DNA of 64,000 bases from NCBI GenBank assembly GCA_951406725.2, contig OX597832.1, positions 35,030,001 through 35,094,000 of the forward strand, given 5' to 3'. Made by a program: the position numbers and the translations under genes. The first letter of the stretch is position 1. Each line of letters begins with the position of its first letter. The stretch is from Octopus vulgaris. Lineage: Eukaryota. The notes under the pieces were generated by a model, which was not told the DNA's origin, searched no databases, and saw only the letters and a list, made by a program, of their open reading frames with translations. Below, piece after piece: positions 3,399-59,117 of this stretch.

Positions 3399-4472
3399 TA
3401 ATAATAATAATAATAATAATGAAATGATTGTATACAGTGCTCAGGTGCACCACAACTTGTCAAAAGTGCGTATAAAGCATATGCAGCAATGTACAAATGT
3501 CTGGAAAGTGAAGAGTGTATGAGTCAGATACATGTTTGCGTGTGTATGGAGGGGAGAAAATCAGGTGTAGTGTTGGCAAATCTCAGGAAGCATGGAAGTT
3601 TCGAAGGATTCAGTGCTCCAACAACTAACAACTGATGCCGGCAGTTTGTTCCATGCTTCAGCAACTCTCAGCGTGAAAAAATGTTTCCAAAAGTCATGAG
3701 AGCTGTGCTGTTTTCTGACTTTGTAAACATGTCCACGGGTGTTAGACGGGTGGAGTTTGAAAAGGTGCTCAGAGTTATAGTTTGTAAGATGGTTAATAAT
3801 TTTATGGGTGTCTGCCAAGTCAGCTGCCAGATGTCGGAATTTCAATGTGTCCATGCCCAGGGAAGTAAGGCATTCAGAATATCGCAAATACCTGATGGAG
3901 GGTATTCTCTTGGTTGCACATCGCTGAACAGCTTCCAGACGATTAATATCCTGGGCAAGATAGGGGCTCCAGACCATCATCATCATCATCATCATCATCA
4001 TCGTTTAACGTCCGCTTTCCATGCTAGCATAGGTTGGACGATTTTGACTGAGGGCTGTCGAACCAGATGGCTGCACCAGGTTCCAATCTTGATTTGGCAG
4101 AGTTTCTACAGCTGTATGCCCTTCTTAATGCCAACCACTGTGAGAGTGTAGTGGGTGCTTTTATGTGCCACCGGCACGGGGGCCAGCCAGGCAGTACTGG
4201 CAACAACCTCACTTGAATCTTTTTACACATGCCACCAGCACAAGTGCCAGTAAGGCAGCGTTGGTAACGATCACGCTCGAATGGTGCCCTTTTATTTTCG
4301 AGTGTGATCGTTACCAACGTTGCCTTACTAGCACCTGTGCTGGTGGCATGTGTAAAAAGATTCGAGCGAGGTTGTTGCCAGTACCACCTGACTGGCCCTC
4401 ATGCCGGTGGCATGGTGATGCAAATTCCAGGTGAGGTCATACCATAGCTATATAAAGCCGCAGATAGATAGC
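3399..4472 (-). mobile_element. CR1-type LINE 3' end, interrupted by an RTE-tail insertion at 3975-4413
   Basis: IYLRLYIAMV*PHLEFAS / VWSPYLAQDINRLEAVQR...HFFTLRVAEAWNKLP; (TAA)n tail at 3399-3420. Confidence 0.85.
3975..4413 (-). mobile_element. Solo RTE 3'-UTR copy with internal inversion
   Basis: (CAT)n tail plus conserved 3' end plus tandem units; 4297-4413 is an inverted copy of 4165-4281. Confidence 0.85.
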
Positions 4473-6344: not shown

Positions 6345-7495
6345 TTTTTTCTTGAGATGTGCAATTCTGTACATTATTTACGATGGATGGATAAGTGTCC
6401 TCACCTTGTTTGTTGTTATCACAACATTTCGGCTGATGTACTCTCTAGCCTTCATCGGGTGTTCTGGTGGAATTTTTGAATCAAATCCTTTCTTTGACTA
6501 ATGGGGTAAAAACTGTTCTCATTCCTAAAGTATGTTGCTGATGTTATTTTTTTATTGATATTATTTACGATTAACACCATGAAAACCAACCAATGGCTTT
6601 GTTATGTTGATGACCCCTTTATACTCTGGCTCCACCAGGAGGATGTCCAAGTAATGCTAAATCATGTGAACTCAATAAAGTCATTCACACAGTTCACAAC
6701 AGAAGAGGAAAAAGACAATCAGCTGACATTCCTGGATGTATTAATAACAAGCGCTGAATATGGGTTCAAGACATCCGTATACCACAGGCCAGCCTTCACT
6801 GGACGATACCTTAACTTTAATTACCAACATCCATACAGTAGAAAGAGAGGGATTGCTCAGTGCCTGAAACCTCAAGCAAAGGCTATAAGTAGTGATCCTG
6901 ATACACACCACAAAGAAATGATCAGACTAAGAAACAATCTAATATGCAACAACTACCCAGAAAATATACTTTCCACTCCAGTTAGGAAGAGAAAGGATGA
7001 AACCCATAAACTGCCTACAGTCTGTTTGCCTTATGTTGAAGGCCTCTTGGAAAAGATACAAAAGATATGTGCCCCATATGACATCAGGACAGTATTCAAG
7101 AATAATACAACACTTCGCAAATATCTCCTTTGAGTAAAACCACCAATAGAAGAGAATATGACCCAAAACTGTGTACTCCATCCCATGCAGTTGCGGTAGG
7201 TTATACAAAGGTAAAACATATTGCCCCCTCAAAATAAGGCTAGAGGAACATCATAAAGCTATGACATGAGGAGATATTGAAAAATGGGGTATAGCCAATC
7301 ATGTATGACAAAACGGAGACCACCCCCCCTTGTGGGATGAAGTTAAAATAATAGACAGAGAATACCACTGGAAAGTACAAAAATTAAAAGAGAGAGGACA
7401 TATGCTAGGACACAATGACTTCTTAAGCAGCAGGCCTAGTGCAGATAAGAATGTAATATGGGAACCAGTTTTAAGAAAAAATAATATATTAAGTT
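6345..7495 (+). mobile_element. Penelope-like retroelement remnant (RT C-terminus plus GIY-YIG endonuclease) with inverted pseudo-LTR piece
   Basis: WLCYVDD, LTFLDV, TGRYLNF, LPYVEGL; frameshifted NCVYSIPCSCGRLYKGKT...LKIRLEEH; stops present. Confidence 0.8.
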
Positions 7496-10180: not shown

Positions 10181-10316
10181 AGTGGAATTTGATTGTTTTC
10201 AAGTGGAATTATCAAAGAACTATGGCATCAGTGAGTGGAAAGAAGATTTAAAAAAGGTATTGATGAAGTCTGGAATAGAGAATCAAGCAGTTGTCTTCCT
10301 GTTCAGTGATACTCAG
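10181..10316 (+). CDS. DNAH1: Dynein heavy chain exon (VEFDCFQVELSKNYG...FLFSDTQ)
   Basis: ttttcag|A GTG ... ACT CAG|gtaata; not in ORF track. Confidence 0.92.
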
Positions 10317-12873: not shown

Positions 12874-13971
12874 TTTGTCTTTTCTTTTATAAGTTTAACC
12901 TCTTCAGCACTTTTCCCCACATCTTCTATAGTCTTCCACTTTCACATTTTCCATTAACTTGGAGAACATGATACTTTTTTTTTATTTACCAACTTCCTTT
13001 TTACTCATCGCCTGCTGATGTCAGCCCAGTCTTCTCTTTTGCACACTACCACATCTGGTTCCTCATATATATCTAGCTTTTCAGTAATCCATTTGCAATT
13101 CAGTGTTAATGTATACCAGTATTACATGTCCAGCAGAGCATACTCCACTCATTTCTTTTCATCTTTGGCAAATTCTTTGCTTTCATAAGCCTGTATCTTG
13201 TTATCATGCAGCTTCAAACTTTGTTTACCAGTATCATGCAATCTACTTTCCAATCTGAGACAGACACCCTTTCTTACCACTGGACGAAATAAATAGTTCT
13301 TTTGCTTTTCCACCCTGTTATGGCACCCTGCTTTCAGAACACACACACTACTGATAAGGTTACCTAGATAACACCAACTGTGAAAGAATTCTTGGTATCC
13401 TGCCAGATATTAAGAACAGTCTGTTTCATGAGTACTCTTACTGCTAGTAGCTCCTGTGCATTCTTCCACTTATCAGTCTACCATCTCTGTTAGTCTGTCT
13501 GTGATACCATTTTGATCTCTTGTATTCCTATAGTTTTCACTAGTTTCACTTTATGGAATTTGTGTCAACTTTTTTTTGTATATTGAGCATGATCCTTTTC
13601 TTGAATGTTGAAGGGTCCTGTATCCTTCCCTGATTACTAAAACTTCAGTATTTGTTAAGTTTACTTTGAGGCTTCATGATTCTATGTCTGGAACTTATTG
13701 CTGGCTCTCACCTTCCTCATAACATCCCTGGACATGGTTTCTACTGTTACCACAAACCATTCATCTAGGCTTACCTTCCCCAGATATTGCTGAACCCTAT
13801 AAATGGCTTTCAGATTAATGAGTATTAGTTGAAGTTACTCCTGGCTAAGTATTTCTTTTCAATAGGAGAAGCATACTAGTGATATGCTGACCTACCACAA
13901 ACCTACATCTCATCTCATCTAATTTTATCTTGACAAGTAGTTGTGTATTTTGGATAATAAAAGGGTGAAAA

Positions 13972-14304: not shown

Positions 14305-14312
14305 TCAACTTA

Positions 14313-17132
14313 CATAATCATCGTTTAACGTCCGCTTTCCATGCTAGCATGGGTTGGATGATTCAACTGGGGTCTGGGAAGCCCGAAGGCTGCACCAGGC
14401 CAGTCATATCTGGCGGTGTTTCTACAGCTGGATGCCCTTCCTAACGCCAACCACTCCGTAATTGTAGTGGGTGCTTTTTATGTGCCACTGACACAGGTGC
14501 CAGACGAGGCTGGCGAACGGCCATGCGCGGATGGTGTTTTTTACGTGCCACCGGCATGGAGGCCAGGCAAGGCTGGCACAGCCATGATCGGATGGTGTTT
14601 GTTACGTGCCACCAGCACGGAGGCCAGTCGATGCGGTCCTGGCTACGGCCATGTTCGGATGGTTCTCTTATGTGCCACTGGCACTGGTACCACAAACTAC
14701 ATATTCCATTGATGTGGATCGATTTTGATTTTGATTTGATTCTTTGATTTTGATTTTCACTTGCCTCAACAGGTCTTCACAGTAGAGTTATGTGTCCCAA
14801 GAAGGAAGGTATGCACAGGTGGACTGACTACGTCCCAGGTAGGGGCCACGGGTTATGGCCTCACTTATCCTGCCGGGTCTTCTCACGCACAGCATACTTC
14901 CAAAGGTCTCGGTCTCTGGTCATTTCCTCGGTGAGACCTAAAGAGCGAAGGTCGTGCTTCACCACCTCGTCCCAGGTTTTCCTGGGTCTACCTCTTCCAC
15001 AGGTTCCCTCAACCGCTAGGGTTTGGCACTTTTTCATACAACTATCTTCATCCATTCTTACCACGTGTCCATACCAGCGTAAACGTCTCTCATGCACACC
15101 ACATCTGATGCTTCTTAGGTCCAACTTTTCTCTCAAGGCACTTACACTCTGTCGGGTATGATCACTGACATTACACATCCATCGGAGCATACTGGCTTCA
15201 TTTCTTGCGAGCTTATGCATATCCTCAGCAGTCACGGCCCATGTTTCACTGCAATGTAGCATGGCTGTTCGTACACATGCGTCATACAGTCTGCCTTTTA
15301 CTCTGAGCGAGAGGCCTTTTGTCACCAGCAGAGGTAAGAGCTCTCTGAACTTTGCCCAGGCTATTCTTACTCTAGCAGTTACACTTTCGGCACCCCCACC
15401 CCCACTACTGACTTGATCACCTAGGTAATGGAAACTATCAACTATTTCTAGTTTTTCTCCTTGGAATGTGGCGGAAAACGGTCTCTGCACATTTTCAGTG
15501 TTTATTGCACTAGAGCATCTGCCACATACAAAAACTATATTCCTAGTTAGCCTTCCTTTGACATTGCTGCACCTCTTATGTGTCCATAGCTTACACTTGG
15601 TGCATCTTATAGAGTTCCTACCTACGCCTTTTCTACAGATCGAGCAGAGCCATCTACCTTAAGGCATTTGAGATTTGTCTACCTTCCTACTTTTTAGGAC
15701 TTTGGTTTTAGCTAGATTGACTTTAAGGCCCTTCGATTCTAATCCTTGCTTCCACACCTGAAACTTCTCCTCGAGTTCTGATAATGATTCAGCAATTAGA
15801 GCAAGGTCATCAGCATAGAGGAACTCCCAGGGGCATCCTGTCTTGAATTCCTCCGTTATTGCCTGGAGGATTATGATAAATAGGAGGGAGCTGAGGACTG
15901 AGCCTTGGTGGACACAAACCTCCACCCGGAATTCTTCACTGTATTCGTTGCCAACCCTCACCTTACTAACAGCGTCCCTGTACATGGCATGCACAGCTCT
16001 CACTAACCATTCATCTATCCCTAGTTTCCTCATTGACCACGAGATAAGGGAACGGGGGACCCTGTCAAAGGCTTTCTTCAAGTCAATGAAAGCCAGGTAC
16101 AGAGTTTTATCTTTGGCTAGGCATTTCTCCTGCAGCTGTCTCACCAGAAATATGGCATCGGTGGTGCTTTTCCCTGGCACGAAACCAAACTGCATCTTGT
16201 CCAGGTTGACTCTCTCTCTAATCAGTTGGGCTATGACCCTTTCCGTAACCTTCATCACCTGATCCAGCAGCTTGATACTTCTGTAATTACTTGTATCTAG
16301 GGCGTCACCTTTACCTTTGTAGCAGTTGACTATTATGCTACTACACCAGTCATTGGGTATGACTCCTTCGTGTATCACCTGGTTAACTATACGGGTGACT
16401 AGGCTATAGCCGACACTGCCAGATATTTTGAGCATCTCAGCAGTAATTCCTGATGGGCATGGGGCTTTCCCTGTCTTCATGCTTCTAATTGCCTTAACTA
16501 CCATGGAACTGTCAACTCGGATAGCTGGTCCCTCTATTGGGTTGACATTCAGCAGACTCTCTTTATCCCATTCATTCTCTTTTTGAGCAACCTTTCATAG
16601 TGGTGTCTCCAAACCTCTCTCTTTGCATTCTCATTTAGCGCAAGTGAACCATCTTTCATGCAAACACATTTCTCTCCTACCACATCACGATTCTCTCTCA
16701 CACACTGTCTTGTAACATGAAACACCTCAAGTCTTTGGTCCTCACGGCGCAGAACATTGGCAAATTTTTTCTTATCTCCTTCCCCTCTGGCTAAATATAC
16801 CTGTCTCCTAGCTTCTCTTTTCGCAGTCTGATACACTTCCCTACTACCGCCATTCCTCCAGTCCTTCCAGGCCTGTCTCTTGTCTCTAATAGCCCTGTCT
16901 ACAACATTGTTCCACCACCACGTTACCCTGGGACGAGATGGGACTTTGCTCCATCCACAGATCTGGTCATTGGCTGTCAGCAGATTGTCCCATAGAAACC
17001 TCCAGTTGGCTTCCACATTATGTGATGCTATATCCCCTTCTATTTTGTCGAAAGCTTCAAGTAGAACTTCTCTAAATCTCCGTCCATTTTCAGGATCTTT
17101 AAGTTTCCAGACCCTTCTCCTAATATGCTTCA
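14313..17132 (-). mobile_element. 5'-truncated RTE-clade LINE, same family as 662-2649
   Basis: ORF fragments 16549-17133, 15659-16504, 14861-15490 (YADD, PHD insert near 15518-15650); 3' UTR with (AATCAA)n, tandem units and tail. Confidence 0.93.
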
Positions 17133-17255
17133 TTAATTTGATGCTTCTGTAGTTTCCCTTCTCTAGACTTTTCTAAGTTTCTAGAGTGATACTACTATAC
17201 AAACCATTGAATATGACACCATCTTGTACTATTTAATCAACTGAGTAAATAGCAT

Positions 17256-20200
17256 ATCATCATCATCATTGTTTAACGGCCGTTTTCCGTGCTAGCACGA
17301 GTTGGACAGTTCGACCGGGGTCTGGGAAGCCAGAAGGCTACACCAGGCTCTAATCTGATCTGGCAGTGTTTCTACAGCTGGATGCCCTTCCTAACGCCAA
17401 CCACTCCATGAGTGTAGTGGGTGCTTTTTATGTGTCGCTGGCACAGAAGCCAGTCAAGGCGGAGCTGGCATCGGCCACATTTGGATGGTGCTTTTTATGT
17501 GTTGCCGGCACAGAAGCCAGTCAAGGCAGCGCTGGCATCAGCCACGTTCGGATGGTGCTTTTTATGTGTCGCTGGCACAGAAGCCAGTCAAGGCGGAGCT
17601 GGCATCGGCCACATTTGGATGGTGCTTTTTATGTGTTGCCGGCACAGAAGCCAGTCAAGGCAACGCTGGCATCAGCCACGTTCGGATGGTGCTTTTTATG
17701 TGTCGCTGGCACAGAAGCCAGTCAAGGCGGAGCTGGCATCGGCCACATTTGGATGGTGCTTTTTATGTGTTGCCGGCACAGAAGCCAGTCAAGGCAGCGC
17801 TGGCATCAGCCACGTTCAGATGGTGCTTTTTATGTGTCGCCGGCACAGAAGCCAGTCAAGGCAGCGCTGGCATCAGCCACGTTCGGATGGTGCTTTTTAT
17901 GTGTCGCTGGCACAGAAGCCAGTCAAGGCGGAGCTGGCATCGGCCACATTTGGATGGTGCTTTTTATGTGTTGCCGGCACAGAAGCCAGTCACGGCAGCG
18001 CTGGCATCAGCCACGTTCGGATGGTGCTTTTTATGTGTCGCCGGCACAGAAGCCAGTCAAGGCAGCGCTGGCATCAGCCACGTTCGGATGGTGCTTTTTA
18101 TGTGTCGCTGGCACAGAAGCCAGTCAAGGCGGCGCTGGCATCAGCCACGTTCGGATGGTGCTTTTTATGTGTCGCCGGCACAGAAGCCAGTCAAGGCAGC
18201 GCTGGCATCAGCCACGTTCGGATGGTGCTTTTTATGTGTCACTGGCACAGAAGCCAGTCAAGGCGGCGCTGGCATCGGCCACATTTGGATGGTGCTTTTT
18301 ATGTGTTGCCGGCACAGAAGCCAGTCAAGGCGGCGCTGGCATCGGCCACGTTCGGATGGTGCTTTTTATGTGTCGCCGGCTCAGAAGCCAGTCAAGGCTG
18401 CGCTGGCATCAGCCACGTTCGGATGGTGCTTTTTATGTGTCGCCGGCACAGAAGCCAGTCAAGGCAGCGCTGGCATCAGCCACGTTTGGATGGTGCTTTT
18501 TATGTGTTGCCGGCACAGAAGCCAGTCAAGGCAGCGCTGGCATCAGCCACGTTCGGATGGTGCTTTTTATGTGTCGCCGGCACAGAAGCCAGTCAAGGCA
18601 GCGCTGGCATCAGCCACGTTCGGATGGTGCTTTTTATGTGTTGCCGGCACAGAAGCCAGTCAAGGCAGCGCTGGCATCAGCCACGTTCGGATGGTGCTTT
18701 TTATGTGTCGCTGGCACAGAAGCCAGTCAAGGCGGCGCTGGCATCGGCCACATTTGGATGGTGCTTTTTATGTGTTGCCGGCACAGAAGCCAGTCAAGGC
18801 AGCGCTGGCATCAGCCACGTTCGGATGGTGCTTTTTATGTGTCGCTGGCACAGAAGCCAGTCAAGGCGGCGCTGGCATCGGCCACATTTGGATGGTGCTT
18901 TTTATGTGTTGCCGGCACAGAAGCCAGTCAAGGCAGCGCTGGCATCGGCCACGTTCGGATGGTGCTTTTTATGTGTCGCTGGCACAGAAGCCAGTCAAGG
19001 CAGCGCTGGCATCAGCCACGTTCGGATGGTGCTTTTTATGTGTTGCCGGCACAGAAGCCAGTCAAGGCAGCGCTGGCATCGGCCACGTTCGGATGGTGCT
19101 TTTTATGTGTCGCTGGCACAGAAGCCAGTCAAGGCAGCGCTGGCATCAGCCACGTTCGGATGGTGCTTTTTATGTGTCGCTGGCACAGAAGCCAGTCAAG
19201 GCGGCGCTGGCATCGGCCACATTTGGATGGTGCTTTTTATGTGTTGCCGGCACAGAAGCCAGTCAAGGCGGAGCTGGCATCGGCCACGTTCGGATGGTGC
19301 TTTTTATGTGTCGCCGGCACAGAAGCCAGTCAAGGCAGCGCTGGCATCAGCCACGTTCGGATGGTGCTTTTTATGTGTCGCCGGCACAGAAGCCAGTCAA
19401 GGCAGCGCTGGCATCGGCCACGTTTGGATGGTGCTTTTTATGTGTCGCCGGCACAGAAGCCAGTCAAGGCAGCGCTGGCATCAGCCACGTTCGGATGGTG
19501 CTTTTTATGTGTCGCTGGCACAGAAGCCAGTCAAGGCGGCGCTGGCATCGGCCACATTTGGATGGTGCTTTTTATGTGTTGCCGGCACAGAAGCCAGTCA
19601 AGGCAGCGCTGGCATCAGCCACGTTCGGATGGTGCTTTTTATGTGTCGCTGGCACAGAAGCCAGTCAAGGCGGCGCTGGCATCGGCCACATTTGGATGGT
19701 GCTTTTTATGTGTTGCCGGCACAGAAGCCAGTCAAGGCAGCGCTGGCATCAGCCACGTTCGGATGGTGCTTTTTATGTGTCGCTGGCACAGAAGCCAGTC
19801 AAGGCAGCGCTGGCATCAGCCACGTTCGGATGGTGCTTTTTATGTGTCGCTGGCACAGAAGCCAGTCAAGGCAGCGCTGGCATCAGCCACGTTCGGATGG
19901 TGCTTTTTATGTGTTGCCGGCACAGAAGCCAGTCAAGGCAGCGCTGGCATCAGCCACGTTCGGATGGTGCTTTTTATGTGTCGCTGGCACAGAAGCCAGT
20001 CAAGGCGGCGCTGGCATCGGCCACATTTGGATGGTGCTTTTTATGTGTTGCCGGCACAGAAGCCAGTCAAGGCAGCGCTGGCATCAGCCACGTTCGGATG
20101 GTGCTTTTTATGTGTCGCTGGCACAGAAGCCAGTCAAGGCGGCGCTGGCATCGGCCACATTTGGATGGTGCTTTTTATGTGTTGCCGGCACAGAAGCCAG

Positions 20201-23200
20201 TCAAGGCAGCGCTGGCATCGGCCACGTTCGGATGGTGCTTTTTATGTGTCGCCGGCACAGAAGCCAGTCAAGGCAGCGCTGGCATCGGCCACATTTGGAT
20301 GGTGCTTTTTATGTGTTGCCGGCACAGAAGCCAGTCAAGGCGGCGCTGGCATCGGCCACGTTCGGATGGTGCTTTTTATGTGTCGCCGGCACAGAAGCCA
20401 GTCAAGGCAGCGCTGGCATCAGCCACGTTCGGATGGTGCTTTTTATGTGTCGCTGGCACAGAAGCCAGTCAAGGCGGCGCTGGCATCGGCCACATTTGGA
20501 TGGTGCTTTTTATGTGTTGCCGGCACAGAAGCCAGTCAAGGCAGCGCTGGCATCGGCCACATTTGGATGGTGCTTTTTATGTGTTGCCGGCACAGAAGCC
20601 AGTCAAGGCGGCGCTGGCATCGGCCACGTTCGGATGGTGCTTTTTATGTGTCGCCGGCACAGAAGCCAGTCAAGGCAGCGCTGGCATCAGCCACGTTCGG
20701 ATGGTGCTTTTTATGTGTCGCTGGCACAGAAGCCAGTCAAGGCGGCGCTGGCATCGGCCACATTTGGATGATGCTTTTTATGTGTTGCCGGCACAGAAGC
20801 CAGTCAAGGCAGCGCTGGCATCAGCCACGTTCGGATGGTGCTTTTTATGTGTCGCTGGCACAGAAGCCAGTCAAGGCGGCGCTGGCATCGGCCACATTTG
20901 GATGGTGCTTTTATGTGTTGCCGGCACAGAAGCCAGTCAAGGCAGCGCTGGCATCGGCCACGTTCGGATGGTGCTTTTTATGTGTCGCCGGCACAGAAGC
21001 CAGTCAAGGCAGCGCTGGCATCGGCCACATTTGGATGGTGCTTTTTATGTGTTGCCGGCACAGAAGCCAGTCAAGGCGGCGCTGGCATCGGCCACGTTCG
21101 GATGGTGCTTTTTATGTGTCGCCGGCACAGAAGCCAGTCAAGGCAGCGCTGGCATCAGCCACGTTCGGATGGTGCTTTTTATGTGTCGCCGGCACAGAAG
21201 CCAGTCAAGGCAGCGCTGGCATCGGCCACGTTTGGATGGTGCTTTTTATGTGTCGCCGGCACAGAAGCCAGTCAAGGCAGCGCTGGCATCAGCCACGTTC
21301 GGATGGTGCTTTTTATGTGTCGCTGGCACAGAAGCCAGTCAAGGCGGCGCTGGCATCGGCCACATTTGGATGGTGCTTTTTATGTGTTGCCGGCACAGAA
21401 GCCAGTCAAGGCAGCGCTGGCATCAGCCACGTTCGGATGGTGCTTTTTATGTGTCGCCGGCACAGAAGCCAGTCAAGGCAGCGCTGGCATCAGCCACGTT
21501 CGGATGGTGCTTTTTATGTGTCGCTGGCACAGAAGCCAGTCAAGGCGGCGCTGGCATCGGCCACATTTGGATGGTGCTTTTTATGTGTTGCCGGCACAGA
21601 AGCCAGTCAAGGCAGCGCTGGCATCAGCCACGTTCGGATGGTGCTTTTTATGTGTCGCTGGCACAGAAGCCAGTCAAGGCAGCGCTGGCATCAGCCACGT
21701 TCGGATGGTGCTTTTTATGTGTCGCTGGCACAGAAGCCAGTCAAGGCAGCGCTGGCATCAGCCACGTTCGGATGGTGCTTTTTATGTGTTGCCGGCACAG
21801 AAGCCAGTCAAGGCAGCGCTGGCATCAGCCACGTTCGGATGGTGCTTTTTATGTGTCGCTGGCACAGAAGCCAGTCAAGGCGGCGCTGGCATCGGCCACA
21901 TTTGGATGCTGCTTTTTATGTGTTGCCGGCACAGAAGCCAGTCAAGGCAGCGCTGGCATCAGCCACGTTCGGATGGTGCTTTTTATGTGTCGCTGGCACA
22001 GAAGCCAGTCAAGGCGGCGCTGGCATCGGCCACATTTGGATGGTGCTTTTTATGTGTTGCCGGCACAGAAGCCAGTCAAGGCAGCGCTGGCATCAGCCAC
22101 GTTCGGATGGTGCTTTTTATGTGTCGCTGGCACAGAAGCCAGTCAAGGCAGCGCTGGCATCGGCCACATTTGGATGGTGCTTTTTATGTGTTGCCGGCAC
22201 AGAAGCCAGTCAAGGCAGCGCTGGCATCAGCCACGTTCGGATGGTGCTTTTTATGTGTCGCCGGCACAGAAGCCAGTCAAGGCAGCGCTGGCATCAGCCA
22301 CGTTCGGATGGTGCTTTTTATGTGTCGCTGGCACAGAAGCCAGTCAAGGCAGCGCTGGCATCGGCCACATTTGGATGGTGCTTTTTATGTGTTGCCGGCA
22401 CAGAAGCCAGTCAAGGCAGCGCTGGCATCAGCCACGTTCGGATGGTGCTTTTTATGTGTTGCCGGCACAGAAGCCAGTCAAGGCAGCGCTGGCATCGGCC
22501 ACATTTGGATGGTGCTTTTTATGTGTTGCCGGCACAGAAGCCAGTCAAGGCAGCGCTGGCATCAGCCACGTTCGGATGGTGCTTTTTATGTGTCGCCGGC
22601 ACAGAAGCCAGTCAAGGCAGCGCTGGCATCAGCCACGTTCGGATGGTGCTTTTTATGTGTCGCTGGCACAGAAGCCAGTCAAGGCGGCGCTGGCATCGGC
22701 CACATTTGGATGGTGCTTTTTATGTGTCGCCGGCACAGAAGCCAGTCAAGGCGGCGCTGGCATCGGCCACGTTCGGATGGTGCTTTTTATGTGTCGCTGG
22801 CACAGAAGCCAGTCAAGGCAGCGCTGGCATCGGCCACGTTCGGATGGTGCTTTTTATGTGTCGCCGGCACAGAAGCCAGTCAAGGCAGCGCTGGCATCGG
22901 CCACGTTCGGATGGTGCTTTTTATGTGTCGCCGGCACAGAAGCCAGTCAAGGCGGCGCTGGCATCGGCCACGTTCGGATGGTGCTTTTTATGTGTCGCCG
23001 GCACAGAAGCCAGTCAAGGCGGCGCTGGCATCGGCCACGTTCGGATGGTGCTTTTTATGTGTCGCCGGCACAGGGATCATAACTCCAATTTCCATTTGGT
23101 TTTTTGATGTTGATGTACTTGACTCAATAGGTCTCCTCAAGCACAGCAGGTCACCCTATGATCCAAGGTAAACACAGCAGGTCGTTCTGCAATCCAAGGT

Positions 23201-23265
23201 ACTTTGGATGGGCTGGGGCTGCTATGCGAAACTGGTACAGGACACATCCATGAACTCACATTATT
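17256..23265 (-). mobile_element. RTE 3'-UTR-derived element carrying a giant internal tandem array
   Basis: (CAT)n tail and conserved 3' end at 17256-17420; UTR-like unique flank at 23074-23265. Confidence 0.85.
17420..23073. repeat. 67-bp minisatellite, about 84 near-identical copies
   Basis: Unit GGATGGTGCTTTTTATGTGTCGCCGGCACAGAAGCCAGTCAAGGCAGCGCTGGCATCAGCCACGTTC; period measured 17483 to 17550. Confidence 0.97.
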
Positions 23266-24021
23266 TATGACTTCACCAAATATTTTCAGTATTTCATCTG
23301 TTCTCCTAACCTTCATTTCTTTGCTCACACTTTTAATTGTTTAGCTGTCAACTCCAATGGCTGGCCCCTCTGCAGATGAAATTGTATTAAGCCCTCTGCT
23401 TCCCATACATTCTCCTTATTCAATAACTTTTTATGAGAAAAAAAAGTATAACACTTCAAAAAAAGCTATATGGAAGTGTTCCATATAGCTTTTTCTTAAG
23501 TGTCACACTTTTTCCAAACAGCTTAATTTTAGTACAATACTTTGCTGTCATGAACACCCTGTGTTTCTGATACTCATGCTTTACAACAAAACAAATCTCT
23601 TACTTTTGACTTCATACCTTACTAAGTGTATATGACATCTATTTTCGTTTTTTTTTTTTTTTCTGTCTACTTAATATTACTGTTTGTGCTCCCCATTCTT
23701 CCTGACTTTCCAGGCTTCTCTCTTAGATTTATATATCTAGAGTATTATTTCACTGTCAGGTGGAATAATACCATAGATATAAACCTCTTCTGTTGTTTGC
23801 AATAGGTTCTTTTACAGAGACTTCCAACCCTATGCTATAAGTTTCTATCTCTTTCTGCCTCCTGTCACATATGCCAGCTAGTACTTCTTTGAACCTATAT
23901 CTAGCCATGGCGTCTTTTGGCCTCCATACTTTCCTTCATGAGATTGTTTTGTGTCCTTGATTCCATCTTACTCTTATCCTGAGCTTGTTGATTACTAATT
24001 TTTGCTGAGTTGTTTATTTTC

Positions 24022-24590
24022 CAAGTGAAATCAAAGTCAAAATCAAATTCGATGACTGGCGTCTGTGCTTCAGGGTGCAAAGAGCACCAGACAAGTGTGA
24101 TCATTGACAGAGCGGCTAACTGGCTTCAGTGCCAGTAGCACTTAAAAGGCACCATTCGAGCGTGATTGTTACCAGCATCACCTTACTGGCACTCGAGCCC
24201 TGTGCTTGTAGGGTATTAAGAGCACCATCCAAGCGAGATCGTTGCCAGCGCGGCTAACTGGCCTCCGTGTTTGTGACGCGTAAGACACCATTCGAGCGTG
24301 ATCATTACCAGCATCGTCTTACTGGCACCTGTGCCAGTGGCATGTGTAAAAAGATTCGAGTTAGGTCGTTGCCAGTACCACCTGACTGGCCCCTGTGCCG
24401 GTGGCATGTAAAAGCACCCACTACACTCTTGGAGTGGTTGGCATTAGGACGGGCATCCAGCTGTAGAAACATTGCCAGATCAAGATTGGAGCCTGGTGCA
24501 GCCATCTGGTTTGCCAGACTTCAGTCGAATCGTCCAACCCATGCTAGCATGGAAGGCGGACGTTAAACGATGATGATAATGATGATGGTG
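24022..24590 (+). mobile_element. Solo RTE 3'-UTR copy
   Basis: (AATCAA)-like head, about 5 units, conserved end, (GAT)n tail. Confidence 0.87.
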
Positions 24591-25966: not shown

Positions 25967-26175
25967 ATAAAGAATGAATCATTTCTCGAAGATTTAAACA
26001 ACATTCTGAATGCTGGAGATGTGCCAAACATTTATAGCCTTGATGAACTTGATAAGATTTATGAAGCCATGAAACCTTCTGTACAAGATATGGGACTACA
26101 ACCAACTAAAACCAATCTGTATACATGCTATACTAAACGGGTTCGTTCCAATCTGCACACTGTAATAACAATGAG
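25967..26175 (+). CDS. DNAH1: Dynein heavy chain exon (IKNESFLEDLNNILNAGDVPN...LHTVITM)
   Basis: taacag|ATA ... ATG AG|gtaaga. Confidence 0.92.
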
Positions 26176-40819: not shown

Positions 40820-41073
40820 GTTAGAAAACTCAGTTTTTTCATGAAAACGATGCAAATTATTTCATTACCCAGTATCTCTAATATCCACTGCTTGAGATAT
40901 TGTAACATATGTACTCACTAATAATAGTTGGGTTTCTTTGAGAAGCAGATCTTAAAATTGGGATGCATTCTGGATAAAATAAGACTTTTTTTATATTTCT
41001 GATATTATTTAGATCTAATAAGGATATTTAGTTCTTGGTACAGAAAACTTGTTACTTGATTTTGCAGTATCTA

Positions 41074-41480
41074 TCCATCCCTCCATCCATCCCTCCATCC
41101 TTCCATCCATCCCTCCATCCCTCCATCCCTCCATCCATCCATCCATCCCTCCATCCCTCCATCCCTTCATCCCTCCATCCATCCATCCCTACCTCCATCC
41201 CTCCATCCCGCCATCCCTCCATCCTTCCATCCCTCCATCCATCCATCCCTACCTCCATCCATTCATCTATCCATCCATCCATCCATCCATCCCTACCTCC
41301 ATCCATTCCTCCATCCCTCCATCCCTTCATCCCTCCATCCATCCATCCCTACCTCCATCCATTCATCCTTCCATCCCTCCATCCATCCATCCTTCCATCC
41401 CTCCATCCATCCATCCCTACCTCCATCCATTCATCCATCCCTCCATCCATCCCTCCATCCCTACCTCCATCCATTCATCC
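41074..41480. repeat. Imperfect (TCCA/TCCC)n microsatellite
   Basis: About 400 bp of CCAT/CCCT tetramers. Confidence 0.95.
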
Positions 41481-42261
41481 ATTTTCATTGCTCATTGGGA
41501 CGGGTTGTGAGACTTGTGTCTTCAGGTACCTCTTCTACAAGATTCTAACCGAAGCAACCATCATTACATTTTCCTGTTGCATTCCCAAACATGACCAGCT
41601 GAGATTATGGATATATTATCCAATCATCTCACACACTGTCTACCCCTACATCTTCTACCAATTTGTCCAGTTTGAGAAGTCTGTCTTGCAATTTTTCCGT
41701 ACCATATTCTAACCATGTATCCAAAGTAGTGGAGCCATTGCCTCTCAATAAGAGAAAGTAGCTGTTTGAGAGAGACTTCCTGACTTTTGAGTTAGACACC
41801 TTGTATGTGATGTTACTCCAGAGTTCCTTAAGAGAAACCCAATTTCAGTTGCTAGTATTTCTGATTTTTTGGTCATTACCCAGCAATCATGACCATAATT
41901 GGAAAGACATGGGAACCAAACTGAAAATGGCTAGTTTTTTTTTCTTTACCTTCTTAGAATTGGATACTGGAGCAGGTGCCTTACTATAACAGCACACCTG
42001 CAATTTAGCAGGAAATTCAGTCTACTGCTTCCCATTACTTGTGAATATGGTCCCAAGACATGTAAATTTCTCCACTTGTCTCAGAGCTGCTCTACTTGCA
42101 TGCAAAATGCAGTTGGAAAACTTTCTGAAAAGGACCAATGCTGGAGTCTTCACAACACGTATTCTCATCCTTTCCTTGCAGCACTTGACAGTAAATCCAT
42201 TCAGTGAATGCTGGAGATCACCTTCTCATGAACCAGGTATATAATATATAATGAAATTATA

Positions 42262-42418: not shown

Positions 42419-42862
42419 TATATAATGAAATTATTGTATACAGTGCTCAGGTGCACCACGACATGTCAAAAGTGCATATAAAGCATATGCAGTAATGTAC
42501 AAATGTCTGGAAAGTGAAGAGTGTATGAGTCAGATACATTCTTGCATGTGTATGGAGGGGAGAAAATCAGGTGTAGTGTTGGCGAATCTCAGGAAGCATG
42601 GAAGTTTTGAAGCATGCAATGCTCCGACAACTAACAACTGATGCTGGCAGTTTGTTCCATGCTTCAGCAACTCTTAGCGTGAAAAAATGTTTCTGAAAGT
42701 CATGGGAGCTGTGCTGTTTTCTGACTTTGTAAACATGTCTGTGGGTGTTAGACAGGTGGAGTTTGAAAAGGTGCTCAGAGTTATTGTTTGTAAGATGGTT
42801 AATAATTTTATGGGTGTCTGCCAAGCCAGCTGCCAGACGTCGGAGTTTCAGTGTATCCAATG
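42419..42862 (-). mobile_element. CR1-type LINE 3' end
   Basis: Near-identical to 3420-3850. Confidence 0.88.
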
Positions 42863-44386
42863 TAGTACTAATTATCTGCAAATATTAGCTGGCAGCCTCC
42901 ACATGCTCCAGTTGCAATACCAATGACAATACATACTCCTGTCAAAGTTTATCAGCCAAGTTTTTGACTTAAAAAAACATTTACCTGAGCATAAATATCT
43001 GGGCATGGCAACCAGAAGTTGCCTCTTAATTTTAAAAACTTCTGCAAAACACTCCACAGTAGCTCATGCACACACACAGTCATATACGTTTTTGAGGTCA
43101 ACAAAGAATGCATACACCTCTTGGCAATATGCCTGTGATTTCTTGAGCTTCGACTTGACTAATCTCTACTCTTCTTTTCCAGATTTTACTGGGGTGGTTC
43201 AACCAAATGATTCCCCTGTAATTAGAGCACTTTTTCTTGTCACCCTTTTTTAAAAATTAGGATTATCACTCTGGATTGCCATTGCTTTGGAGTCTTTCCA
43301 GGGGTCAAAACCACCTGGCATACATAATTCAGCTACATACTACTTTCTCTATTTAATACTTCATGCATCTCAGGCCATATTTCATCTTCTCCAGCAACCT
43401 CGACAGATCTGAGCTCTTAAATTGCCACTATGACTTTAGTCTTTGTGAGATCAGCAAAAATATTCTTTCTATCGCCCAGGGATATTCTTCTCTGTAGAGA
43501 GAACTCCAACTGAGTTCTCAGTGGTAGGTTTAGAAAAGGGTTTCTTGTTATGAAATTGATGCTATGTCGACCAGAATACATTATTAGCTGATCTAAAGTT
43601 TGAGTTCATCTCAACTCCAAACTCCTCCCATTATTTCATTTTGGACGTTTTACTGTCTCTGCTGCAACCTTTTGTGCCTCAGTGTTCTGCATGCAAAAAA
43701 AAAAAAAAATAAACAAAAATGGTGTGGTGTTTGTGTGGGGGAGGCTTGTTTCCAAGTCAAACATTGTATGCTTCCTTCTTTGCTTGGATAGTATCTTCAA
43801 CTTATTGGTAAAACCAGGAGGTTCTTCTACCACCTAACACCACACCAGTATTCCTTTGTATTATCATTTATTCTTTTGTATATATTTAAATTGCCTGTAA
43901 AACTTTGATGTTTATTTGAAAGTTTGAGGTGGAGGAAATGTTTATTTCAGCATCACCCACCCCCAGTCCTTATTCATCACTCATTCAATTGTAGAAACTA
44001 AGACACTGGAGCAGATGATAATAATGGTGATGATTACAATGATGATATAAATTGAATAAATGTACATGAACTGTTTCCATATGTCAAGGTCATCTTAAGT
44101 ACAAAAGCAGTAAGTTTCAACAGAAAGGCTGTGGTTAATTGAACTGGCAATATTTTGTATCTTTTACATATTTTTTTTTATTTAACCAAAAGTGATGAAA
44201 ATAATAGAAACTTTAGTGGAGTGAAAGGATATAATTAATTACTACACCTACTACAATCACTCTGTCCAACTTTTTATTACTTTTTTCATTTGACATAATA
44301 GAAAAAAAGATTTTTTTTTGGTCCCTGTTTTATTTTATTTTCTGGAAACCTGTAAAATATTGTTATTATTATTTATTGTTTTGTAG

Positions 44387-53689: not shown

Positions 53690-54300
53690 AAACCAAAAAA
53701 GAGGTATAAGGACTTGCTGAAGGCTTCCTTAAGAGACGCTTGCATCTCTCCTGACACATGGGAGGGCATAGCTATTGATTGTAGCAGGTGAAGAAGGATT
53801 GTGCACGAGGGGGCAGCTACTTTTGAGAAATCTCGAGTTGCGCATGAGAAAGTAAGGGGGGGATGTCGAGAAGGGCATCGCTGTTACACTTCCAGATGGG
53901 AAGGGTCTTCCTATGATGCTGACATGCAATGTCTGTGCAAGACCCTGCCCCAGTAAAGCTGGACTCATGAGTCATCTTCGTAGTCAGAAAGCGAGACAGA
54001 TGAGTGACAACCTGGCAACTGGTGGTGGTGTAACACACCATACTAATCATATCTGTCGGGCATGTGGAAGAGAGTGTAATTTGGCAGGAGGACTTAAACG
54101 ACATGCAAAGGTACATGAAGCCCAGTTACAACTACAGCTGGCAACTACCGGTAAAGGTTTTAGCTGCCAATTCTGTACAAGACATTGTAGATCTTTAGCT
54201 GGGCTAAAAAGTCACATTCGATCACAGCACCAGTAACAGTAAAGCTTCTTGCAATGGCCATACTCAATAACGAGGAGGCAGCCATCATGTATGTATGTAT
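53690..54300 (+). mobile_element. RTE-type LINE 3' end encoding three tandem C2H2-like fingers, (TATG)n tail
   Basis: TWEGIAIDCSR*RRIVHEGAATFE (RTE C-terminus) in frame with ORF 53913-54236; (TATG)n on both flanks. Confidence 0.7.
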
Positions 54301-58177: not shown

Positions 58178-59117
58178 CTCTTTCTTTCTTTCTTTCCTTC
58201 CTTCCTTTTTTCTTCTTTTCTTTCTTCCTTTCCTTCTTTCTTTTCTTCTTTTCTTTCTTTCTTTTTCTTTCTTTCTCTTTCTTTCTTTTTTCTTTCTATT
58301 CTTTTTCATTCTTTCTTTTCTTTTTTTCTTTCTTTCTTTCTTTTCTTTCTTTTCTTCTTTTCTTTCTTTGTTCCTTTTTTTTTCTTTCTTTCTTTTTTTT
58401 TTCTTTCTTCCTTTTTCTCTTTCTTTTCTTTCTTCCTTTCTTTTCTTTCTTTCTTTCTTTCTTCCTTTTTCTCTTTCTTTTCTTTCTTCTTTTCTTTTCT
58501 TTCTTTCTTCTCTTTTCTTTCTTTCTTTTCTTCTTTTCTTTCTTTCTTCTCTTTTCTTTCTTCTCTTTTCTTTCTTTCTTTTCTTTCTTTCTTTTCTTTT
58601 CTTCTTTTCTTTCTTTCTTCTCTTTTCTTTCTTTCTTTTCTTCTTTTCTTTCTTTTCTTCTTTTCTTTCTTTCTTTTCTTTCTTTTCTTTTTTTTCTTTT
58701 CTTTCTTTTCTTTTCTTCTTTTCTTTCTTTCTTCTCTTTTCTTTCTTTCTTTTCTTCTTTTCTTTCTTTTCTTCTTTTCTTTCTTTCTTCTCTTTTCTTT
58801 CTTTCTTTTCTTTTCTTCTTTTCTTTCTTTCTTCTCTTTTCTTTCTTTCTTTTCTTCTTTTCTTTCTTTTCTTCTTTTCTTTCTTTATTTTCTTTCTTTT
58901 CTTTTTTTTCTTTTCTTTCTTTTCTTTCTTTTCTTTTTTTTCTTTTCTTTCTTTTCTTTCTTCTCTTTTCTTTCTTTCTTTTCTTTTCTTTCTTCTCTTT
59001 TCTTTCTTTCTTTCTTTCTTTCTTTCTTTTCTTCTTTTCTTTCTTTCTTTTCTTCCTTCCTTCCTTCCTTTTCTTTTCTTTCCTTCCTTCTTTCTTTCTT
59101 TCTTTCTTTCTTCCTCC
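58178..59117. repeat. About 940-bp polypyrimidine (CTTT/CTT/CTTTT)n tract
   Basis: Almost purine-free on the + strand. Confidence 0.97.

What the first reader, a model, noticed from the sequence alone, without database searches (positions are those of the whole stretch)
17420..23073. Retrotransposon 3'-UTR unit expanded into a 5.65-kb, roughly 84-copy minisatellite inside a dynein intron
Seen: the 67-bp array sits exactly where other family copies have 2-7 units, flanked by the family's terminal cassette and tail (17256-17420) and by UTR-like sequence (23074-23265). It makes up over a third of the 15.6-kb intron. Inference: a satellite being born from a LINE UTR module. Every insertion of this family may be a seed for a hypervariable VNTR, and the pre-mRNA carries about 84 antisense copies of the UTR module that could pair with or yield small RNAs against the family.
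Basis: partly seen in the sequence, partly recalled or inferred. Interest (0 to 1): 0.7.

Follow-up and report, generated by a model that had tools for sequence, protein, structure and literature searches.

The report
Dead LINE tail grown into minisatellite
A 67-base piece in the tail of a truncated jumping gene has been copied 84 times inside an intron of a flagellar motor gene, likely in place and long after insertion; the same has happened at other copies in this genome, so it is a large but likely harmless example of a known way repeat DNA arises.

Summary
The array is real: 84 units of 67 bp plus a 27-bp stub, 36% of a 15,650-bp DNAH1-like intron, inside a 5'-truncated RTE-like LINE in antisense orientation. 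Its subfamily normally carries one 62-bp unit, one 67-bp unit and a stub. Genome-wide exact-pattern counts: 1,844 matches with ≥1 unit, 48 with ≥2, 8 with ≥5; 11 loci with ≥9. This one is the longest 67-bp array found (next: 45 units; a sister 62-bp array has 65). All units share three private changes, so growth was local. Six of seven common variants are CpG transitions, units tend to alternate as dimers, and other variation is about 0.15%, implying a long short-array phase and then recent growth. Independent short-read runs show the array-specific words at about 5-14 times single-copy depth; no long read spans it. Multi-unit copies favour small chromosomes and the ends of large ones, hinting at recombination. 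A small-RNA role was not testable and has no support. Same route as Alu-, B1- and Ogre-derived repeats. This scan already noted it elsewhere in this genome (22 and about 110 units). New member of a known kind.

The parts
17256..17269 (-). (ATG)n microsatellite tail: 3' end of the host LINE copy
   Evidence: sequence; same tail on other copies
17270..17419 (-). Conserved 3'-terminal cassette of the LINE family
   Evidence: 11 other near-full copies in the window at 72-87%; 75-93% in L002-L030
17420..23046 (-). 84 tandem copies of the 67-bp UTR unit (one is 66 bp), with three private fixed changes, CpG-decay variants and dimer periodicity; the subfamily's 62-bp unit is missing
23047..23073 (-). 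27-bp stub, a direct repeat of the unit's start; together with the unit's own start it brackets the amplified segment
23074..23265 (-). Proximal 3' UTR of the subfamily; the copy is 5'-truncated at the ORF end and has no coding sequence
   Evidence: about 90% to 39 other top genome hits; ORF end seen in L002 and others
17116..17241 (-). Older decayed RT fragment (matches RT aa 69-114): left side of the insertion target
   Evidence: tblastn E 1.2e-5
23269..23391 (-). Older decayed RT fragment (matches RT aa 13-60): right side of the insertion target
   Evidence: tblastn E 0.001
10181..10316 (+). DNAH1-like exon upstream of the intron
   Evidence: Pfam AAA_8 48-92
25967..26175 (+). DNAH1-like exon downstream of the intron
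   Evidence: Pfam AAA_8 93-161; DNAH1 best solved match

Best explanation
This is an 84-unit minisatellite inside the 3' UTR of a 5'-truncated RTE-like LINE copy, likely grown in place by unequal exchange or slippage long after insertion and likely neutral. Steps: (1) Shown: a UTR-only copy sits within an older decayed RT fragment in the DNAH1-like intron. (2) Shown: the subfamily's single 67-bp unit is bracketed by ~27-bp direct repeats. Inferred: mispairing between them made the first duplication, and the same process removed the 62-bp unit. (3) Inferred: the array stayed at a few units long enough for two lineages to gain three CpG transitions each. (4) Inferred: once longer, it grew quickly by copying dimers and shuffling variants, probably by meiotic gene conversion or unequal crossover. 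It would be spliced out with the intron.
For: All 83 67-bp units have their nearest neighbour in this array and share three fixed changes. The diagnostic 40-mer occurs 22 times in the 2.8-Gb genome, all here. Most other arrays carry their own fixed changes (15 of 22 with ≥4 units), so expansions are independent rather than copied from an expanded master. Heavy-tailed counts: 1,844 / 48 / 8 anchored matches for ≥1 / ≥2 / ≥5 units; 11 loci with ≥9. The 62-bp unit does the same: 17 loci with ≥3 units, arrays of 65.5 and 30.4 copies. Lag-1 difference 4.04 and lag-2 2.41 against a shuffled mean of 3.09 (0 and 1 of 2,000 shuffles as extreme). 6 of 7 multi-copy variants are CpG transitions (p 5e-4). 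Non-CpG variation is 6 singletons plus one 5-copy variant over about 4,300 sites, against 2.3% in single-copy units and 9/182 in this copy's UTR. Copies with ≥2 units are enriched on small chromosomes (17/48 vs 5/64, p 5e-4) and near the ends of C1-C10 (p 5e-4).
Against: No long read spans the array, so the exact 84 is unverified. The position test was post hoc, used a mutation-defined background of 64 copies, and was not significant over all chromosomes by relative distance (p 0.80). This array lies at the middle of its 71.8-Mb contig (relative distance 0.49). 7 of 22 other arrays have no fixed private change, and some of their units are as close to other loci as to their own, so a few short expansions could have been retrotransposed. 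Neutrality is assumed, not tested.
Confidence: 0.8

Rival explanations
1. Assembly artefact: a few real units were over-expanded by the assembler.
For: No spanning read was available; all laid runs were short contigs. Depth ratios in other runs (about 14, 5, 5.6) are lower than the 19-22 copies of the same words in the window.
Against: 25 distinct unit variants in a non-repeating mosaic whose longest identical block is 6 units; only one indel in 5.6 kb. Array-specific exact contigs have depth 716 and 721 vs 52 for the junction contig (X1), 258 vs 53 (X3, another organism label) and 99 vs 18 (X4).
Confidence: 0.05
2. The array was already in the RNA of an active master element and was inserted at full length (SVA-like VNTR carried by retrotransposition).
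For: Some copies carry short multi-unit tails; the copy is short enough to be reverse-transcribed.
Against: No other locus has the diagnostic 40-mer. Units are far more alike (about 0.15% non-CpG) than the copy's own UTR is to the subfamily majority (4.9%), which rules out equal age.
Confidence: 0.04
3. The array is functional: DNAH1 pre-mRNA supplies 84 antisense copies of the LINE tail as a small-RNA source or decoy, or the array alters splicing through repeated weak acceptor-like sites.
For: Orientation is antisense to the element. DNAH1 is a flagellar, germ-line-expressed gene in mammals (recalled). An inverted sister copy at 24080-24583 could pair with the first 443 nt at 73.5%.
Against: Family copies in both orientations are already common in this gene. 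The array adds 84 units to at least 1,844 genome-wide. Units are decaying at CpGs. If the unit core is the pseudoknot proposed in earlier notes, both helices are broken in 83 of 83 units, against 12 of 26 single copies fully intact (this concerns the element strand). No unusual folding: z -0.5 to +0.7 for dimers, -1.3 for a standard UTR. No Rfam match.
Confidence: 0.06
4. An incipient satellite DNA: the array is on its way to becoming a large heterochromatic or centromeric block that spreads to other loci.
For: It is the longest 67-bp array found and lies mid-contig. In Lathyrus, Ogre-derived arrays expand near primary constrictions (PMC7004042, abstract).
Against: Only 5.65 kb, confined inside one element in a gene with intact exons; no spread. 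Centromere position is unknown.
Confidence: 0.05

Closest known systems
Alu-, B1- and MaLR-derived minisatellites/VNTRs (Jurka & Gentles 2006; Bois 1998; Haber & Louis model), as reviewed in PMC6947457 and PMC3389668 (passages read)
   Same: A segment of a dispersed retroposon bracketed by short direct repeats is duplicated, then amplified locus by locus; subtelomeric bias; polarity at one end (the UTR-side units here are closest to the family unit).
   Different: The host is an RTE-like LINE in a mollusc; the bracketing repeats are 27 bp rather than 5-10 bp; the UTR is itself built of old duplicated modules, giving thousands of equivalent seeds.
Ogre LTR-retrotransposon 3'-UTR tandem repeats that expand into satellites (PisTR-A, Macas 2009 via PMC9659126 passages; Vondrak et al. 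PMC7004042, abstract and outline)
   Same: Short tandem modules in a retrotransposon 3' UTR that stay short in most copies and occasionally expand, giving a heavy-tailed length distribution.
   Different: Non-LTR host; arrays reach only a few kb here; expansion is biased to chromosome ends and small chromosomes rather than primary constrictions.
Octopus RTE-2_OV (PMC9115989, passages read)
   Same: RT followed by a Cys-rich finger; a repeat-rich 3' UTR (the paper says a microsatellite makes up most of it).
   Different: No sequence comparison with RTE-2_OV was possible. The paper's main text has no 'tandem' or 'minisatellite'.
SVA VNTR (recalled; PMC3287187 seen in a search listing only)
   Same: GC-rich VNTR inside a retroelement, variable between loci.
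   Different: The SVA VNTR is a standard multi-unit part of the mobile element; here about 97% of copies have one unit and large arrays arise after insertion.

Membership tests
TE-derived minisatellite (VNTR) | Head-to-tail units of about 10-100 bp in an array of up to about 100 copies | tested here: met
   67 bp x 84.4; size definition from PMC6947457 passage
TE-derived minisatellite (VNTR) | Unit homologous to a single-copy segment of the host TE, flanked by TE sequence in register | tested here: met
TE-derived minisatellite (VNTR) | Short direct repeats bracket the amplified segment | tested here: met
   27-bp stub repeats the unit start in single copies and in the array
TE-derived minisatellite (VNTR) | Length varies between individuals | tested here: inconclusive
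   Contig-depth ratios of about 14, 5 and 5.6 vs 19-22 in the window; depth is a rough proxy and may reflect variant mix or haplotype depth
Satellite DNA (classical) | Very long arrays or spread to several loci, heterochromatic | tested here: not met
   5.65 kb, one locus, 22 of 22 diagnostic matches here; chromatin state not testable
RTE-clade LINE (host) | Non-LTR RT ORF upstream of the UTR | tested here: met
   RVT_1 in the sister copy; subfamily copies match that ORF at 50-80% up to the UTR
RTE-clade LINE (host) | 3' microsatellite tail and 5' truncation | tested here: met
   (ATG)n tail, truncation at the ORF end; tails typical of RTE per PMC6007223 passages
RTE-clade LINE (host) | Single ORF with AP endonuclease plus RT | tested here: inconclusive
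   The two extended copies whose ORFs I listed were 5'-truncated; no endonuclease domain was seen
RTE-clade LINE (host) | RT phylogeny places it in the RTE clade | not tested
   No named reference RTs were at hand. The RTE label rests on recalled C-terminal motifs and earlier notes; the Atlas gave only unnamed mollusc clusters
RTE-clade LINE (host) | 7-15-bp target site duplication | tested here: inconclusive
   At most a 3-base overlap at the junctions; the insertion is old
piRNA/siRNA source locus | Strand-biased small RNAs mapping to the array | not testable with these tools
   No small-RNA reads available

The most novel reading that the evidence does not exclude
Run-away LINE-tail arrays in germ-line genes act as antisense amplifiers: the excised DNAH1 intron would deliver 84 tandem antisense copies of the element's 3'-UTR module in the gonad, feeding piRNA production or titrating the RNA of active family members, with allele length tuning the strength.
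Probability: 0.04. Interest if true: 0.65.

Novelty: new member of a known kind. Interest (0 to 1): 0.27.

Why it matters
The locus itself is probably inert, though it could be a highly variable marker. The value lies in the family: at least 1,800 near-identical, similarly aged seeds with a measurable outcome (1, 2, 5, up to 84 units) form a natural experiment on how minisatellites are born. The first duplication looks rate-limiting (about 3% of copies), and one in six of those reaches five units. The bias to small chromosomes and chromosome ends can be tested against a recombination map. CpG decay inside the arrays also implies germ-line methylation of these repeats, whereas octopus TEs are reported to be mostly unmethylated outside gene bodies (PMC9476566, passages).

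Tried and rejected
No RNA holder was listed for the stretch, so expression and small RNAs stay open. The left junction could not be confirmed: 17176-17244 had no cover in 4 of 4 runs at 95%; a hole proves nothing. X2 and X3 did not cover the right flank at 98%. Folding of unit dimers (DNA, both strands) and of a standard UTR (RNA) gave no structure beyond shuffles. Rfam: 0 matches. The 800-1,900-aa open frames over the array were rejected as genes: the 67-bp unit has no stop on that strand, and short copies show the same frames. The chromosome-end bias was not significant when all chromosomes were pooled by relative distance (p 0.80). The search for a full-length subfamily copy failed in 2 of 2 loci whose ORFs were listed (3 were fetched). 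A clear TSD was not found. Literature: 'octopus + minisatellite + retrotransposon' gave 3 papers, none on this by title or abstract; searches found no description of these arrays. Only part 1 of 3 of PMC13282606 was read, and no supplements or repeat libraries were seen; these may already list the unit.
Full report
Observation. TRF finds a 67-bp array at 17420-23073 with 84.4 copies and 93% matches. It splits into 83 units of 67 bp, one of 66 bp and a 27-bp stub, with 25 distinct full-unit variants. It lies between an (ATG)n tail plus terminal cassette (17256-17419) and 190 bp of UTR (23074-~23265), all reading on the minus strand. The host gene is on the plus strand. The exons at 10181-10316 and 25967-26175 are consecutive in Pfam AAA_8, and the best solved relative is axonemal dynein heavy chain 1 (E 5.5e-25, next paralogue 1e-12). 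The intron is 15,650 bp and the array is 36.1% of it. The genome is 2.8 Gb with about 30 large contigs. That it is an octopus is my reading from recalled repeat sequence, mollusc Atlas hits and earlier notes; no call named it.

The host element. The right flank plus one unit finds a large subfamily (3,625 first-look candidates, 40 scored, 89-92% identity). Longer copies continue into an RT ORF that ends where the window copy begins, so the window copy is a UTR-only, 5'-truncated LINE. It splits an older decayed RT fragment: residues 13-60 match on one side and 69-114 on the other. The standard tail is cassette, one 62-bp unit (A), one 67-bp unit (B) and a stub repeating the first 27-29 bp of the units. 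Of 29 copies examined, 23 had one B unit, 3 had two or three, and 3 had none detected. The window copy has lost A, as have L064, L071 and L074. The RTE label rests on the RT, the microsatellite tail and recalled motifs; endonuclease and phylogeny were not shown.

How often it expands. Exact patterns anchored on the UTR gave 1,844 matches with at least one B unit, 48 with at least two and 8 with at least five; reversed-pattern controls gave 0. These are lower bounds, and a few loci count more than once in the first figure. An unanchored pattern for nine or more units gave 38 matches at 11 loci including this one. I fetched 23 candidate loci; measured B arrays ran from 5 to 45 units, and one locus was a 167-bp repeat instead. 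The A unit also expands: 59 triplet matches at 17 loci, with arrays of 65.5 and 30.4 copies in the two I measured. The window's array is the longest of its unit type found, not a different kind of object.

Local growth. Every one of the 83 67-bp units is closest to another unit of this array, and all share three changes from the subfamily majority. A 40-mer holding them occurs 22 times in the genome, all in this array. Of 22 other arrays with at least four units, 15 have their own fixed changes and 7 have none. Six of the seven multi-copy variants are CpG transitions (p 5e-4), and CpG sites change 11 times faster than others in single copies. Two main lineages each differ from the undecayed unit by three such transitions and tend to alternate: neighbours differ more (4.04) and next-but-one units less (2.41) than shuffled arrays (3.09; 0 and 1 of 2,000). 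Non-CpG variation is about 0.15%, against 2.3% in single-copy units and 4.9% in this copy's UTR. I infer a long phase as a short array followed by recent growth in dimer steps with exchange between units. The undecayed units sit at the UTR end, the one-sided polarity described for minisatellites (PMC3389668, passage).

Is it real and variable? Only short-read contigs were available. X1 and X4 hold a contig over the right junction and flank, with 2 differences and with 4 differences plus a gap (depth 52.1 and 17.7). X3, under another organism label, holds a 72-nt contig with this locus's diagnostic letters at depth 52.7. Exact contigs over the array-specific words had depth 716 and 721 (X1), 258 (X3) and 99 (X4), about 14, 5 and 5.6 times those references, where the window has 19-22 copies of most of those words. 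This supports a multi-copy array outside this assembly and hints at length differences. It is rough: the reference may be one haplotype, variant mix may differ, the table was truncated, one run may be the assembly's source, X2 showed nothing usable, and the left junction was uncovered in all four runs.

Where expansions happen. Against a background of 64 subfamily copies picked by one substitution, copies with two or more units are enriched on contigs C19-C31 (17/48 vs 5/64, p 5e-4) and lie nearer the ends of C1-C10 (median 0.12 vs 0.21 of length, p 5e-4). Pooled over all chromosomes the relative distance does not differ (p 0.80; absolute distance p 0.02). This fits recombination-linked growth but is post hoc, and the window's array is mid-contig.

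Function. Nothing here supports one. Family copies of both orientations already fill this gene; an inverted sister copy 7 kb away could pair with the cassette whether or not the array exists. Unit dimers and a standard UTR fold no better than shuffles, and Rfam has no match. Earlier notes propose a pseudoknot in the unit core. I did not verify that fold, but my own pairing scheme for it is fully intact in 12 of 26 single copies and in 0 of 83 array units, where both helices are broken, so this array is not an amplified intact signal. Small RNAs could not be tested.

Comparison. TE-derived minisatellites arising between short direct repeats are established for Alu, B1 and MaLR (PMC6947457, PMC9659126, PMC3389668; passages), and 3'-UTR arrays that occasionally expand are established for Ogre (PMC7004042; abstract and outline). 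I found no paper describing these octopus arrays (PMC9115989 passages; PMC13282606 part 1 of 3; supplements unseen). This scan has already noted the same process at other loci of this genome.

Verdict. New member of a known kind, interest 0.27, mainly for the family-wide natural experiment.

Noticed in passing
L066 and L067 (G000:C16:57.919 and 57.973 Mb): Two copies 53 kb apart share the same rare fixed changes and about 95% identity over the element, with 13 vs 9 units: a local duplication or two haplotypes showing length divergence from one seed.
   Followed up: partly
L105:416-5395: A 65.5-copy array of the 62-bp unit lies next to a 10.9-copy array of a different 67-bp unit: two expansions side by side.
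   Followed up: no
L078 (G000:C1:838.7-840.2 kb): A 167-bp tandem repeat made of the 67-bp unit plus 100 bp of UTR; L015 has a two-copy version of the same.
   Followed up: partly
window 14306-17135 (-): A 5'-truncated sister-subfamily LINE with long RT and Cys-finger frames, about 120 bp from the array element and within the same decayed RT region (12880-13930 is also decayed RT): nested insertions.
   Followed up: partly
window 17354-23171 (+): The unit has no stop codon on the + strand, so the array gives open frames of up to 1,917 aa that gene callers could mis-annotate.
   Followed up: yes
window 41069-41482 and 58179-59112: Long simple-repeat arrays in other introns: ATCC-based with a 44-bp higher-order period, and a 930-bp TCTT-rich tract.
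   Followed up: no
window 6510-7300, 3561-4004, 42567-42884, 53856-54236: Fragments of other retroelements (Penelope-like RT/GIY-YIG, CR1-like C-termini, a C2H2-finger tail), labelled from recalled motifs only.
   Followed up: no
L106:4-1465: A 169-bp tandem repeat, unrelated in sequence, directly beside a 30-copy array of the 62-bp unit.
   Followed up: no
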